Origin: a virus
Direction: 5' to 3' (one strand)
Virus record (IMG/VR): IMGVR_UViG_3300042868_009121
Coordinates: 52,145-116,144 of that record
Length of the DNA: 64,000 nt
Shown: positions 7,353 to 13,081 of the stretch, one piece after another
Layout: the number at the start of each line of letters is the position of its first letter
How positions within the stretch are numbered: position 1 is the stretch's first letter
Position numbers and translations under genes: made by a program
The notes under the pieces: model-generated
Told to the model about the DNA's origin: nothing
Database searches by the model: none
Seen by the model: only the letters and a program-made list of their open reading frames with translations

Positions 7353-8396
7353 TTATTTTAATTTAATTGCGAAGTCATAATACTTGTCATGACCCCATGT
7401 TTGTTTAAGAATTGAATTATTTTTCATTCTATGACCATTATTTTTTATAATATGATCTTCAGACTGATATTCTTGGAAATAACGAACCACGTCGCATGCT
7501 CTACTATCTTCACAATCAATTGGATTCAAGTTATACCTATTAGACAAGAATTGTAGTACTTCATTAATATACTCGAACTCTTTTACTTTAGGACTAACTT
7601 TAGGAAAAATAGCTTTAATACAACGAACTGCGTTTGTTCCTGCATATACCCAACCTTTAGGATTTACCATATTAGGAAAATATTCACCTAAGTCAGCAGC
7701 AAATGCAGTCAATACAAAGTTTTGTTTTTTAAATCCAACACTATTAAGATATTCATTACCAATATCTGTTACTTGATAGATATCTAATCTTTTAGTAGTA
7801 ACAGCTTCATAAATATGTCTAACTAAACCTTCTGAGTGTTCAAGAATAAAACGTCTTAAGTGTCCTCTAGTCTCGCCTTCAAAAGTGAATTGTGGAAGTA
7901 AGTATCCTTTATTATCTGTAAAAGGCGTGATGCGGTTTCTAAGGTCTTCTTTCCATTCTGGCCATGTATATCTTTCTTTTAATATAGAATCTACAATCCA
8001 GAAATTACCGAAACCATGCGTACCCAGGATGTCCTTGATATGATCTGTTTTATATCTAGGTACGTAATTAATACCAGAACCACTTAGTCTAAATAAATAG
8101 AATAGCATAAACCAATCAAACTCATCTTTTATATCATGATGTGTAAAGTGATTACCCATTCCTCTTAAGTCTTTTTCTTTATACCATACGGCTTCAGTAA
8201 AAGCGCAGAATGCTGCAAATCTACGATGCGCAGTATCATAAATAGGCACATGATAAATTAAATCGTCATTAACATCTGCAAGTAAGTCTCCATCATAAGG
8301 AAGCTTAAGACTACCATGTTGTTGCATTAATAAACTACGTTTATCGTATTCATCTAATGCTTCAAGGAGTTTTTCGTTTATAATAAATTTAGTCAT
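7353..8396 (-). CDS. aGPT-PPlase1 / amino-acid:DNA transferase (ADDT)-like HhH-fold DNA-modifying enzyme
   Basis: YDTAHRR, FVLTAFAADL, VYAGTNAVRCI (GPGAxRGL-equivalent), DCEDSRACDVVRY (E..LCE..KY-equivalent); context next to TS homolog and PLP enzyme. Confidence 0.7.
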   Translation of the reverse strand: MTKFIINEKLLEALDEYDKRSLLMQQHGSLKLPYDGDLLADVNDDLIYHVPIYDTAHRRFAAFCAFTEAVWYKEKDLRGMGNHFTHHDIKDEFDWFMLFYLFRLSGSGINYVPRYKTDHIKDILGTHGFGNFWIVDSILKERYTWPEWKEDLRNRITPFTDNKGYLLPQFTFEGETRGHLRRFILEHSEGLVRHIYEAVTTKRLDIYQVTDIGNEYLNSVGFKKQNFVLTAFAADLGEYFPNMVNPKGWVYAGTNAVRCIKAIFPKVSPKVKEFEYINEVLQFLSNRYNLNPIDCEDSRACDVVRYFQEYQSEDHIIKNNGHRMKNNSILKQTWGHDKYYDFAIKLK

Positions 8397-8422
8397 ATAT
8401 AAATGTATAAAAATTATGTTTA

Positions 8423-9103
8423 TTAATCAAATCTATCTTTGCAGTGATCAAAATGCCATCGCTGCATAGCATTGTATTGACCTATTTTTTTACAATATGG
8501 ACACTCCACTTTTTTCCTATCTTTAGCTGATTCTGACATTTTAATTTTAGCTTCTTCTGATTTAGGTTTGCGCATCTTACTTATAGTATTTTTAGAGTGT
8601 TTTTTACCAAATCTCCAGTTTTTTTCTCCTATTCTAGAATTTGATATATTCAATCTATGAGATTCAGAAAAAATCTTACCAGTATTAGGTCCTGGTTTGC
8701 CTATTTTAGCTTTTGACAGTTTCTTTTTATGATCTTCAGATAAAATTTTGCCTTTATGAGAGATAGATATTTTTAATTTAGTTTCATAACTTACAACTTT
8801 TTCTCTCATTTTATTTTTACAATACTCATATACTCTAGAACTTGGTTTATATCTATTTCCTTTCTCTGTAGGTATTATAGACATCATAGAAAAAGCATAA
8901 AATAGACTAGGATTATCAGGATATATTTCATGTAGTAACCAATGACATAAAAAATGTTCTCTTGCAGTAAGCTCTACTATATTATCTTTATCATTACAAC
9001 CTCCAATACATTTAGGTATTATATGATGCTTTTCTTTATATCCTTCTACAATTCTATTTTTAGCTCTGTATATAATTTGATCATATATTTTTTTATAATT
9101 CAT
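8423..9103 (-). mobile_element. Free-standing HNH homing endonuclease with NUMOD3-like repeats and C-terminal Zn finger
   Basis: EKHHIIPKC..GG..N..LTAREHFLCHWLL; SEDHKKKLS/HSKNT repeats; CPYC..RWHFDHC. Confidence 0.9.
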
Positions 9104-9212
9104 AAAAAAGAAAATGGTCCAAAAAACAGAGGAGCTACTACCTTCCTAAGTTTAAAGGACCAATAAGTTTATTATAGAATGTTGGTAGTAGCAACTTTCT
9201 GTCTATAATAAA
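9104..9212 (-). ncRNA. Candidate structured leader: two hairpins with complementary (kissing) loops
   Basis: Stems 9202-9212/9168-9178 and 9157-9162/9115-9120; loops CUACUAC (9185-9191) and GUAGUAG (9135-9141) are perfect complements. Confidence 0.6.
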
Positions 9213-9214
9213 TA

Positions 9215-9445
9215 TCATAGTTTTTCTATTTCTTGTTTTACTTCTTCTAAATAATCCCAAACCTTTTTATCATAAAAACCTGCAAGTACTAATAGTTCGC
9301 CTATTGCTATTAATGCACATTGTTTAGCTTGTTTCCATGCTTTATATTCTTCAGATATACCTAAAGGCTCATTTATCCAAGCCTCATTAGGTGTTGTTTG
9401 GTAAAACTTATCTACTAATTCTTCTGCTTTTTCTTTTGGTGTCAT
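9215..9445 (-). CDS. Mini-ORF family A (MTPKEKA...EVKQEIEKL)
   Basis: Paralog of 10249-10503. Confidence 0.75.
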   Translation of the reverse strand: MTPKEKAEELVDKFYQTTPNEAWINEPLGISEEYKAWKQAKQCALIAIGELLVLAGFYDKKVWDYLEEVKQEIEKL

Positions 9446-11449: not shown

Positions 11450-13081
11450 TTACATTCCCATAGTCATGTCCATCATAGGATCTGACTTGTCATTTTTTTC
11501 TTTCTTTTCAAATACAACAGATTCAGTTGTCAAAATAGTTCCTGCTACTGATGTTGCATTCTTAAGTGCTGTAATAACAACTTTAGCTGGATCAATGATG
11601 CCTGATTCAAACGCATCTACCATTTTATGATTCTTTGCATCATAAATTTTATTTTTTACTAATTCGCTTGGAATATAATTCCACCAGTCTTCTACACCAG
11701 CATTAGATAAAATCTTAATAAATGGTGCTTGTAAAGCATTGCGAACAATATCTCTAGCGATTGCTACATTGCTATTGCTTTCTGCTCTATGATTAAGTGC
11801 TACTCTATAAAGTGTTGCACCACCACCAGGTACGATACCGTCAGCAAGAGCTGCTTTAGTTGCAAATAATGCATCTTCTACACGATCTTTCTTTTCTCTA
11901 ATCTCAATATCACTATTACCACCTACAGAAATAATTGCAACACCACCAATCAACTTACCAAGTCTTTCTTGCAACTTCTCTTTCTCGTAGAACGATGTAG
12001 CTTTTTCAATTTGCTCTTTTATTTCTTCTGCTCTAACTTCAATCGCTCTCTCATTACCTTTACCATCAATAATAGTAGTCTCTTCTTTAGATACAGTTAC
12101 AAGTCTTGTTGTACCAAGATATTGAGCGAGTTGCTGTGTAGATAATTTATCAAGCTTCAAACCTTTATCTTTAGAAATAACTTGTCCACCTGTCAAGATA
12201 GCAATATCTTCTAAGATTAATGTTTTACGCTCACCAAAGTCTGGTGCTTTAACTGCGCAAACTTGTACAATACCACGCATTTTATTTACAATTAATGTAG
12301 CAAGAGCTTCATCACCAATATCTTCAGCGATAATTAATAAAGGTCTATTCTCTGAATTTGCTTTAGTCAATACTTGTAACAACTCTTGTGCAGTTGAAAT
12401 ACGTCCATCATATAAAAGAATATATGGATTATCAAGCACAGATTGCATTGTTACATTGTTAGTTACAAAGTAAGGTGATTTGTAACCACGATCAAATTGC
12501 ATACCTTCAACAATCTCTAATGTAGTTTCACCAGTTTTAGATTCTTCAATAGTTACTACACCTTCACGACCTACTTTATCAAGTGCTTCAGCAATTAAGT
12601 TACCAACTTCAGGATCATTATTACCTGAGATAGTTGCAACTTGTTTAATTTGCTCTTCTGAAGAAATTTCTGTTGCTAATTCTTTAATTTCTTTTACTAC
12701 TTCATTAACGATATTGTCAATCTCATTCTTAATCTCAACAGCGTTAACGCCTTGACGAATTTCTTTAAGACCTTGTTTAATCATTTCAGTAGCAAGAAGT
12801 GTAGATGTTGTTGTACCATCACCTGCTTCATTTGCAGATTTAATACTAACTTGCTTAACAAGTTGTGCACCAAGATCTTCAATATCATCTTCAAGTTTAT
12901 GAAATGCTTTAGCTACTGTTACACCATCTTTTGTAACTTTAACTTCACCATTTTGTTCACGAATTAATACTGTGCGACCACCAGGACCTAATGTTGATGA
13001 TACTGATTGATTTAACTTTTCTATACCGGAAAGTAACTTTTCTTTAAGCTCTGTTCCAAAAACGTTTTTTGTTGTACTCAT
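11450..13081 (-). CDS. groL: Chaperonin GroEL
   Basis: [34 protein letters not shown], Met/Gly tail. Confidence 0.98.

What the first reader, a model, noticed from the sequence alone, without database searches (positions are those of the whole stretch)
9104..9212. Kissing-loop structure in the leader of the HNH endonuclease
Seen on the minus strand: hairpin 1 has an 11-bp stem UUUAUUAUAGA/UCUAUAAUAAA plus GUUG/CAAC and loop CUACUAC. Hairpin 2 has UGGUCC/GGACCA, AAAC/GUUU, AGGA(A)G/CUCCU and loop GUAGUAG. The loops are perfect 7-nt complements (9 nt with flanks). The structure ends about 11 nt before the AUG, and an ATATTTAT motif overlaps the 5' arm. Inference: a structured RNA travelling with the endonuclease, acting as a translational switch for a toxic nuclease, a nuclease-associated RNA, or an element-end signal.
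Basis: partly seen in the sequence, partly recalled or inferred. Interest (0 to 1): 0.72.

Follow-up and report, generated by a model that had tools for sequence, protein, structure and literature searches.

The report
Kissing-loop RNA leader of homing endonucleases
The two hairpins with mutually pairing loops are real: they are one copy of a conserved RNA leader of about 115 bases, absent from Rfam, that Flavobacterium-type phages place between a phage promoter-like motif and selfish DNA-cutting-enzyme genes of several unrelated families, most likely to keep those genes weakly expressed.

Summary
It is not chance. A covariance model finds 52 distinct copies in uncultured phage contigs. In all full-length copies the 6-7-nt loops are complementary, using 23 different loop sequences. 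The kiss is 100% and 98.7% paired in the two large alignments, with 6 of 7 pairs covarying and 0 of 500 shuffles matching. Both hairpins covary too. G.U outnumbers A.C 31 to 5, so the fold is an RNA of the gene strand.

A relative without the nuclease gene shows that leader, HNH gene and a 26-nt tail arrived as one insert of about 817 nt. The leader starts with ATATTTATT, a strand-biased intergenic motif found before many phage genes and probably a promoter. It ends in a stable hairpin, a U-run and the AUG.

Nearly identical leaders precede unrelated HNH and GIY-YIG nucleases. It matches no Rfam family and no GenBank phage.

My best reading (confidence 0.55) is a cis-acting leader that limits nuclease expression. 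This resembles the T4 I-TevI, segB and mobE hairpins but has a different architecture, in a host without Shine-Dalgarno sites. The mechanism is inferred, not shown.

Earlier agents of this scan found the same family on other DNA.

The parts
9207..9215 (-). ATATTTATT, a promoter-like motif of the phage. It is the first bases of the leader and part of the 5' arm of hairpin 1.
   Evidence: ATATTTAT occurs 23 times on the gene strand and 4 times on the other. Eighteen of the 23 lie in the 7.5% of the window that is intergenic (P about 1e-16), 11-33 nt before start codons. The same holds in related contigs and directly before nuclease genes that lack the structured leader. Promoter function and the transcription start are inferred.
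9168..9212 (-). Hairpin 1. Lower stem 9212..9202 with 9178..9168, bulge CAGAAA 9201..9196, apical stem 9195..9192 with 9184..9181, loop CUACUAC 9191..9185.
   Evidence: RNAalifold predicts it independently. All 4 apical pairs covary. The lower stem is mostly invariant but shows G.U pairs, one compensatory A-U to G-C change and a compensatory change in the divergent copy L009.
9163..9167 (-). Unpaired linker, which with the end of the 3' arm reads AAACUUAUU. Its sequence is nearly invariant in the family.
   Evidence: Invariant columns in alignments A1 and A2. It is kept even in divergent copies (L009, L018). Function unknown.
9115..9162 (-). Hairpin 2. Base UGGUCC 9162..9157 with GGACCA 9120..9115, middle AAAC with GUUU, apical AGGA(A)G with CUCCU, loop GUAGUAG 9141..9135.
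   Evidence: All 5 base pairs and both apical pairs covary in the model-fitted alignments. Mean predicted stability in the family is -19.6 kcal/mol.
9135..9141 (-). Loop 2, which pairs with loop 1 (9191..9185) in a 7-bp loop-loop kiss (9 bp with flanks).
   Evidence: I8. Across the family, 303 of 305 cells are Watson-Crick and none is a wobble. There are 23 different loop codes.
9104..9114 (-). U-rich tail between hairpin 2 and the AUG. It is either a terminator-like U-run or a poor translation start region.
   Evidence: Positions -12..-1 of the leaders are 75% U and 13% A. The other 50 genes of the window are 33% U and 51% A.
8423..9103 (-). HNH-NUMOD3 homing endonuclease gene, 226 aa.
   Evidence: Pfam NUMOD3 at 4.4e-14, HNH_5 at 7.5e-05 (below Pfam's cut-off) and the motif HHIIPKCIGG.
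8397..9213 (-). The whole inserted cassette, about 817 nt: leader, nuclease gene and a 26-nt tail.
   Evidence: Aligned with the nuclease-free allele L084:2770-2850, where the stop codon of the 76-aa gene abuts the ATG of the 347-aa gene. The exact left edge is ambiguous by 1-3 nt.
8376..8396 (-). First seven codons of the downstream 347-aa gene, carrying a cluster of 7 substitutions relative to the nuclease-free allele.
   Evidence: The proteins are otherwise 97% identical. This fits target-site divergence or co-conversion next to a homing endonuclease insertion (inferred).

Best explanation
This is a cis-acting structured 5' leader that belongs to a free-standing homing-endonuclease cassette of a Flavobacterium-type myophage. 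Its job is to hold down, and probably to time, expression of the nuclease.

Shown:
- The cassette brings its own copy of the phage's gene-start motif ATATTTATT.
- That motif and the bases after it form the 5' arm of hairpin 1.
- Hairpin 2 is stable, has a G+C-rich base, and is followed by a U-run and then the AUG.
- The two 7-nt loops pair with each other.
- All of these helices are kept by compensatory changes in an RNA of the gene strand.

Inferred:
- The motif is a promoter, and transcripts that start there lack the bases that close hairpin 1.
- The complete fold then forms only on transcripts that read in from upstream genes. In that fold two roughly equal-length hairpins stand side by side, tied at the top by the kiss and closed at the bottom.
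- The fold, together with hairpin 2 occupying positions -11 to -17 and a U-rich, A-poor start region, makes the nuclease poorly translated, partly terminated before the gene, or both.
- The nuclease is therefore made at a low level, mainly from the cassette's own transcript.

This is the logic known for T4 I-TevI, segB and Aeh1 mobE. Here it is rebuilt for a host whose mRNAs have no Shine-Dalgarno site to hide.
For: Structure and family:
- Pair counts support every helix.
- There are 52 distinct copies and 23 loop codes.
- G.U plus U.G number 31 against 5 for A.C plus C.A, which places the fold on the gene strand.

Association with nuclease genes:
- All 44 distinct downstream ORFs of at least 150 aa read as nuclease genes: Pfam HNH, GIY-YIG or NUMOD domains in most, and GIY-YIG-like N-terminal motifs read by eye in the rest.
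- Four further copies sit before visibly decayed nuclease genes.
- The leader is part of the insert.

Promoter-like motif:
- It opens the leader and recurs before many genes.
- It lies 12-25 nt before the ATG of related nuclease genes that have no hairpins.
- Remote copies keep the pairing of the motif bases UUUAU with AUAAA even where the middle of the stem is lost.

Start region:
- It has U at -3 (98%) and -6 (84%) and paired C at -12 and -13.
- In Flavobacterium johnsoniae, A at exactly these positions and an unstructured -20..+20 region favour initiation (PMC6847099).
- Hairpin 2 averages -19.6 kcal/mol, more stable than the phages' plain terminators at -8 to -14.

Precedent: hairpins with an embedded late promoter silence read-through transcripts of T-even nuclease genes (PMC2988022).
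Against: - No transcript ends are known, so promoter function and the start site are guesses.
- Hairpin 1 does not touch the start codon, and hairpin 2 stops 11 nt before it. Nothing is sequestered in the T4 sense.
- Hairpin 2 and the kiss would also be present in the cassette's own transcript, so it is unclear what distinguishes the two RNA species beyond 5-13 A-U pairs.
- Nothing shows what the kiss adds, because hairpin 2 is stable without it.
- In many copies the next phage gene starts 1-5 nt after the nuclease stop codon. Strong termination at hairpin 2 would therefore be costly.
- Nested folding does not predict different accessibility of the AUG in the two RNAs (incomplete).
Confidence: 0.55

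Rival explanations
1. Attenuator plus leader-derived small RNA with a private address. The motif is a promoter and hairpin 2 with its U-run is a terminator about 95 nt downstream. Most transcripts would then be a short RNA that ends before the nuclease gene. Its two loops could pair in trans with the loops of nascent leaders of the same copy only, giving copy-specific feedback. This would resemble P4 CI RNA or plasmid copy-control RNAs, and the loop sequence would serve as a specificity code.
For: - The layout is promoter-like motif, then about 95 nt, then a G+C-based hairpin and a U-run directly before the AUG.
- There are 23 loop codes while the flanking blocks stay nearly invariant.
- Copies on one contig always differ in code, up to 6 copies on IMGVR_UViG_3300020711_000012.
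- Leaders stay intact next to decayed nuclease genes (L188, L189, L263:163, L177:4425).
Against: - The absence of shared codes within a contig is not significant. I estimate about 0.15 by chance for the roughly 20 within-genome pairs.
- The interior of hairpin 2 and the apical stem of hairpin 1 vary as much as the loops, so drift under structural constraint is enough to explain the diversity.
- The two hairpins have matched lengths (42-46 and 46-56 nt), which suits an intramolecular kiss.
- The simple terminator scan did not flag hairpin 2.
- Downstream genes often depend on read-through.
- No Rfam match to C4 or CI-type RNAs.
Confidence: 0.15
2. An RNA stability or processing element. Hairpin 1 at or near the 5' end, or the long quasi-continuous helix made by hairpin 1 plus the kiss, protects the nuclease mRNA from 5'-end-dependent decay. 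Alternatively it is a double-strand RNase site that separates the nuclease mRNA from the upstream message.
For: - If transcription starts 1-6 nt after the motif, the RNA would begin inside hairpin 1 and still pair AUAGAUAG with CUAUCUAU.
- The nearly invariant single-stranded linker between two hairpins could be a cleavage site.
Against: No data on RNA ends. A simple 5' hairpin would do this job, so the model does not explain the kiss, the U-run or the poor start region.
Confidence: 0.1
3. A DNA-level element: a portable promoter-palindrome cassette that serves mainly as a recombination point for shuffling nuclease genes (PeSL-like), or a cruciform or protein-binding palindrome.
For: - Fifty-three pairs of leaders that are 85-98% identical precede nucleases with unrelated N-terminal domains.
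- This is the pattern described for PeSL promoter-terminator motifs (PMC4122927).
- The arms of hairpin 1 form a perfect DNA palindrome.
Against: - G.U outnumbers A.C 31 to 5, which argues for folding of one RNA strand.
- Loop-loop and hairpin 2 covariation have no DNA-level rationale.
- Shuffling is more likely a by-product of the shared sequence than its function.
Confidence: 0.07
4. An RNA cofactor or guide of the nuclease, as HEARO (omega RNA) is for IscB.
For: A structured RNA lies directly upstream of an HNH gene, and its loops are variable.
Against: - The same leader, with the same loops, serves HNH_5, HNH_3 and several GIY-YIG lineages.
- Loop 7-mers do not recur in the flanks (5 against 8.5 expected).
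- One insertion site carries different codes (L013 and L038, L014, L153).
- These enzymes have their own NUMOD DNA-binding modules.
- No Rfam hit.
Confidence: 0.03

Closest known systems
Regulatory hairpins with an embedded late or middle promoter in T-even homing-endonuclease genes (I-TevI, I-TevII, I-TevIII, segB, Aeh1 mobE; PMC2988022)
   Same: An RNA structure lies directly upstream of a phage homing-endonuclease ORF. A phage promoter motif sits in the 5' half of a hairpin, so the full structure can form only on read-through transcripts. The presumed purpose is low or late nuclease expression.
   Different: - The T-even cases are single hairpins that bury the Shine-Dalgarno site and AUG. 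Each gene has its own unrelated hairpin.
- Here there are two hairpins joined by a 7-bp loop-loop kiss, and neither contains the AUG.
- There is no Shine-Dalgarno site.
- One conserved sequence family is shared by unrelated nuclease genes.
PeSL composite promoter-terminator motifs of T4-like phages (PMC2839356, PMC4122927)
   Same: Short conserved regulatory cassettes are repeated within and between phage genomes. They flank variable genes and act as points of exchange between unrelated sequences.
   Different: PeSLs are a plain terminator stem-loop followed by an early sigma-70-type promoter. Here the order is promoter motif first, then two covarying hairpins with a kiss. The motif is different and the association is with nuclease genes.
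Kissing complexes of antisense control RNAs (ColE1 RNA I/RNA II, R1 CopA/CopT) and the P4 CI / P1 c4 immunity RNAs
   Same: Fully complementary 7-nt hairpin loops whose sequence can change freely as long as the partner changes too. In P4 a leader-derived RNA pairs with sites in the same leader to cause termination.
   Different: In those systems the partners are two molecules. In the plasmid cases they are transcribed from opposite strands. Here both loops lie on one strand about 45 nt apart. No processing or trans action is shown, and there is no Rfam match.
HEARO / omega RNA of IscB (PMC9755519)
   Same: A structured RNA lies upstream of an HNH-containing nuclease ORF in a mobile element.
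   Different: HEARO is a longer guide RNA bound by one RuvC-HNH protein family. This leader serves HNH and GIY-YIG enzymes alike, shows no guide-like match to the flanks and does not match the Rfam model.
Riboswitches organised by loop-loop contacts (purine, lysine, guanidine-II)
   Same: Two hairpins packed side by side and tied by their loops, upstream of a regulated ORF.
   Different: Their loops are conserved in sequence and help build a ligand pocket. Here the loops are the most variable part and pair purely by Watson-Crick complementarity, and no conserved pocket is evident.

Membership tests
T-even-type nuclease-gene regulatory hairpin with embedded promoter | A stable RNA structure immediately upstream of, or over, the translation start of a homing-endonuclease gene | tested here: met
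   Hairpin 2 (family mean -19.6 kcal/mol) ends 11-13 nt before the AUG in all copies.
T-even-type nuclease-gene regulatory hairpin with embedded promoter | The ribosome-binding site or start codon is sequestered inside the stem | tested here: not met
   The AUG and the 11 nt before it are outside both hairpins. The phage's genes have no Shine-Dalgarno sites at all.
T-even-type nuclease-gene regulatory hairpin with embedded promoter | A phage promoter lies in the 5' half of the structure, so its own transcripts cannot form it | tested here: inconclusive
   The promoter-like motif ATATTTATT is the 5' arm of hairpin 1. The transcription start is unknown, and hairpin 2 and the kiss would still form.
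T-even-type nuclease-gene regulatory hairpin with embedded promoter | Translation is repressed on read-through transcripts and released on late transcripts | not testable with these tools
   Needs reporter or ribosome-profiling data.
Any Rfam 15 family (including HEARO, group I introns, C4 antisense RNA, self-cleaving ribozymes) | A covariance-model match at or near the gathering score | tested here: not met
   No hit overlaps the element in the window at E up to 10. None overlaps eight other copies at E up to 1.
Intrinsic (factor-independent) terminator | A G+C-rich stem directly followed by a U-run | tested here: inconclusive
   The base stem GGNCC with GGNCC is followed by (A)UUUUUAUUUU. 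However, the hairpin is about 50 nt long with internal loops and was not flagged by the consensus scan. Downstream genes often need read-through.
PeSL promoter-terminator cassette | A terminator stem-loop followed by a sigma-70-type early promoter, repeated at the borders of variable genes | tested here: not met
   The order is reversed and the motif is ATATTTAT(T/A), not a sigma-70 consensus. The shuffling behaviour is shared.
Kissing-loop complex | Two hairpin loops with 6-7 contiguous Watson-Crick complementary bases, kept by covariation | tested here: met
   The kiss is 100%, 100% and 98.7% paired, 6 of 7 pairs covary and no wobble pairs occur. Whether the two helices form at the same time, and within one molecule, cannot be tested here.
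HEARO / omega-RNA-type guide RNA | An RNA segment matching the target or flanking DNA, and a single cognate nuclease family | tested here: not met
   Loop 7-mers are not enriched in the flanks. The leader precedes several unrelated nuclease families.

The most novel reading that the evidence does not exclude
The leader is a small RNA gene in its own right, running from promoter motif to terminator-like hairpin. Its two loops form a private address. That would make the 23 loop sequences incompatibility groups of selfish nuclease genes, analogous to plasmid copy-control RNAs or P4 immunity.
Probability: 0.12. Interest if true: 0.85.

Novelty: new variant of a known kind. Interest (0 to 1): 0.62.

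Why it matters
- Homing endonucleases must be expressed enough to spread but not enough to harm the phage. How this is managed is known only for a few T-even genes, each with its own hairpin that hides a Shine-Dalgarno site.
- Here one portable, strongly covarying RNA module is shared by at least six or seven nuclease lineages from two unrelated superfamilies. The phages probably infect Bacteroidota, where translation starts without Shine-Dalgarno pairing.
- That makes it a good handle on how expression is gated in such hosts.
- It is also a clean natural example of a long-range 7-bp loop-loop interaction with more than 20 natural compensatory variants, and a ready candidate for a new Rfam family.
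- As a side effect, the shared leader appears to act as a recombination joint that swaps nuclease genes.

Tried and rejected
- **Known RNA family.** Rfam cmscan of the region and of eight other copies found nothing.
- **Isolates.** GenBank phages gave no match by megablast or blastn.
- **Cellular genomes.** A gapped pattern over 185,579 species genomes gave 34 loci. None scored as a member with the model (best E = 0.36).
- **Other copies in the window.** There are none. The only other hit is the palindrome of hairpin 1 read on the opposite strand.
- **Loops as guides.** The 7-mers are not enriched within 300 nt upstream or 1500 nt downstream (5 against 8.5 expected). They do not follow the insertion site or the nuclease family.
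- **A conserved upstream ORF in the leader.** An ATG before the motif exists only in some copies, so I rejected this.
- **A second promoter in the 3' arm or linker (TATAAT-like).** There is no proper -35 element, and the words do not recur before other genes.
- **The 3' arm pairing with the U-run and AUG when its 5' partner is absent.** This is possible on paper (5-9 A-U pairs) but is not predicted by folding and cannot be tested by covariation, so I did not adopt it.
- **Selection for different codes among co-resident copies.** This was observed in every multi-copy contig but is not significant by my estimate.
- **Accessibility of the AUG in the two RNA species.** The script stopped with an error after four examples, and I did not pursue it because nested folding cannot model the kiss.

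Full report
**1. The observation**

- The stop codon of a 76-aa gene lies at 9217..9215 and ATATTTATT at 9215..9207.
- Hairpin 1 has an 11-bp A-U-rich lower stem (9212..9202 with 9178..9168, I3), a 6-nt bulge, the apical stem GUUG with CAAC, and the loop CUACUAC.
- A short linker follows.
- Hairpin 2 has the base UGGUCC with GGACCA, two further short helices, and the loop GUAGUAG.
- Eleven U-rich bases follow, then the AUG (9103) of a 226-aa HNH-NUMOD3 protein.
- The loops are complementary over 7 nt, or 9 nt with flanks (I8).

Alone, the fold is only mildly better than shuffled sequence (z = -2.25). The simple scan does not call hairpin 2 a terminator.

**2. It is a family**

A blastn of the leader against loci fetched with the HNH protein and with the downstream gene found the same roughly 115 nt in front of different genes. 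Two exact-pattern scans of IMG/VR added more.

I built a covariance model from 24 copies. It found 96 matches, 52 of them distinct, in the loci held, plus three weak remote ones that end exactly at an HNH start codon.

The window holds one copy. The leader was not found elsewhere:
- Rfam 15 has no match.
- GenBank phages have no match.
- The 34 pattern matches from 185,579 species genomes contain no member.

**3. Covariation**

RNAalifold predicts both hairpins on its own. I counted pairs for a structure that includes the loop-loop helix as a pseudoknot, on one MAFFT alignment and two model-fitted alignments.
- 97.1%, 97.9% and 98.5% of cells are paired, against about 81% in shuffles and 30-41% when partners are slid.
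- Covariation scores are 0.45-0.52 against 0.15-0.17, with 0 of 500 shuffles reaching them.
- The kiss is 100%, 100% and 98.7% paired, and 6 of its 7 pairs change on both sides.
- Across distinct copies, 303 of 305 kiss cells are Watson-Crick and none is a wobble.
- There are 20 perfectly complementary loop codes in the model alignments and three more by eye, 23 in all.
- All four pairs of the apical stem of hairpin 1 covary, as do all five base pairs and both apical pairs of hairpin 2 in the model-fitted alignments.
- The lower stem of hairpin 1 hardly varies. Its changes are G.U pairs or compensatory, including in the divergent copy L009 (TTTATAAT with ATTATAAA).
- In the stems, G.U plus U.G number 31 and A.C plus C.A number 5. 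The folding strand is therefore the gene strand, that is, an RNA.

One caveat applies. Covariation shows that each helix is selected, not that all of them form at once.

**4. It travels with the nuclease gene, but not with one nuclease**

In contig L084 the 76-aa gene (100% identical) and the 347-aa gene (97%) are directly adjacent. In the window about 817 nt lie between them: leader, HNH gene and a 26-nt tail. The first seven codons of the downstream gene carry seven substitutions, as expected next to a homing site.

All 44 distinct ORFs of at least 150 aa behind a leader read as nuclease genes.
- They fall into an HHIIP-type HNH with NUMOD3, I-HmuI-like HNH_3, a short HNH, and three or four GIY-YIG lineages.
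- Most carry Pfam HNH, GIY-YIG or NUMOD domains.
- I sorted the remainder by eye from their N-terminal motifs.

Four more leaders stand before decayed nuclease genes, and one copy has lost hairpin 1.

Fifty-three pairs of leaders that are 85-98% identical precede nucleases whose N-terminal 110 residues show no similarity. Conversely, only about 10 of 80 loci with relatives of this HNH carry the leader. The leader is therefore a portable module, and it probably also serves as a recombination joint, as PeSL motifs do in T4-like phages (PMC4122927).

**5. The setting**

The window is a myophage region.
- It has a tail sheath, fibres, a DNA polymerase, a ribonucleotide reductase and a GroEL-like gene.
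- Its G+C content is 26-38% along the window, about 32% overall.
- The closest isolate by the sheath protein is Flavobacterium phage vB_FspM_immuto, at 45% identity.
- Its genes lack Shine-Dalgarno sites and have A-rich leaders, as in Bacteroidota (PMC6847099).

**6. The 5' end is a promoter-like motif**

- ATATTTAT occurs 23 times on the gene strand and 4 times on the other.
- Eighteen of the 23 lie in the 7.5% of the window that is intergenic (P about 1e-16), 11-33 nt before start codons.
- Related contigs show the same pattern.
- Relatives of this nuclease that have no hairpins have the motif 12-25 nt before their ATG.

The variable distance to the ATG, down to 2-3 nt, fits a promoter better than a ribosome site. 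No transcript data exist, so this is inference.

The 3' arm of hairpin 1 is the complement of this motif and of the bases after it. No other promoter copy in the window has such a complement. Remote family members keep the pairing of UUUAU with AUAAA even where the middle of the stem is lost. An RNA that contains the motif, most simply a read-through transcript, must therefore matter.

**7. The 3' end**

Hairpin 2 averages -19.6 kcal/mol, against -8 to -14 for plain terminators of these phages. Its G+C-rich base occupies about -11 to -17.

The bases -12..-1 are 75% U and 13% A, against 33% and 51% for the phage's other genes. There is U at -3 and -6 and paired C at -12 and -13. In F. johnsoniae, A at exactly these positions and lack of structure favour initiation. 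The start region therefore looks deliberately poor, or the U-run is a terminator tail, or both.

Many downstream genes begin 1-5 nt after the nuclease stop codon, which argues against efficient termination.

**8. Geometry (inferred)**

Hairpin 1 is 42-46 nt and hairpin 2 is 46-56 nt in all variants. The two hairpins thus have nearly equal numbers of layers.

With the bulge of hairpin 1 and the internal loops of hairpin 2 acting as corners, the apical helices and the kiss could form a crossbar over two parallel lower stems joined by the short linker. An intramolecular kiss is therefore feasible.

**9. Reading**

The best-supported function is cis regulation that keeps the nuclease weakly or late expressed. 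The complete fold would form on read-through RNA only. This follows the T-even precedent (PMC2988022) but with a new architecture.

The role of the kiss, the nearly invariant linker AAACUUAUU and the true transcript ends remain unexplained.

The rivals are:
- an attenuator with a leader-derived RNA that carries a private address;
- a stability or processing element;
- a DNA-level shuffling cassette;
- a nuclease cofactor. This is the least likely, because the loop codes follow neither the nuclease family, nor the insertion site, nor the flanking sequence.

**10. Earlier notes of this scan**

Other agents reported what appears to be the same family in other genomes and reached similar readings. 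One suggested the P4 CI RNA analogy, which I used for the rival model. Two said the leader also precedes non-nuclease genes, which I did not see in my 44 ORFs. None of these notes was used as evidence.

Noticed in passing
window, minus strand, e.g. 40217, 49118, 43083, 37615, 35966, 24456, 19609, 14513, 5739, 3452: ATATTTAT(T/A) is a strongly strand-biased intergenic motif 11-33 nt before start codons of structural and replication genes. It is a likely phage promoter element that differs from the Bacteroidota TAnnTTTG consensus. In two genes it lies only 2-3 nt before the ATG, which suggests leaderless or near-leaderless mRNAs.
   Followed up: partly
window 8376-8396 (-) against L084:2820-2850: Seven substitutions are clustered in the first seven codons of the 347-aa gene next to the insertion, in proteins that are otherwise 97% identical. 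This is probably homing-site divergence or a co-conversion tract.
   Followed up: partly
window 8397-8422 (-): The 26-nt tail of the cassette ends in ACATTTATAT directly before the ATG of the downstream gene. This is one mismatch from the promoter-like motif, so it might restore a promoter for the displaced gene.
   Followed up: no
L004:2950-3003, L005, L006 and L012 (same site upstream of the 347-aa gene): A different HNH gene (43% identical) occupies the same intergenic site in related phages. It has the promoter motif but no hairpins, so two alternative cassettes compete for one site.
   Followed up: partly
L272:3286-3372 (-); L188:6152, L189:2596, L263:163, L177:4425: One copy has lost hairpin 1 by a deletion between its arms. 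Four intact leaders stand before truncated or frameshifted nuclease genes, one of them with ATA in place of ATG.
   Followed up: partly
window 11450-13081 (-): A GroEL/Cpn60-family chaperonin gene lies in this phage region (Pfam Cpn60_TCP1, 9.4e-63).
   Followed up: no
contig IMGVR_UViG_3300020711_000012 (loci L143, L175, L219, L261): Six leader-nuclease cassettes sit on one 52.7-kb contig, and each has a different loop code.
   Followed up: partly
kiss column 6 of loop 1 (window 9186) with column 2 of loop 2 (window 9140): One pair of the kiss is an invariant A-U in all but one copy, while the other six pairs vary freely.
   Followed up: no
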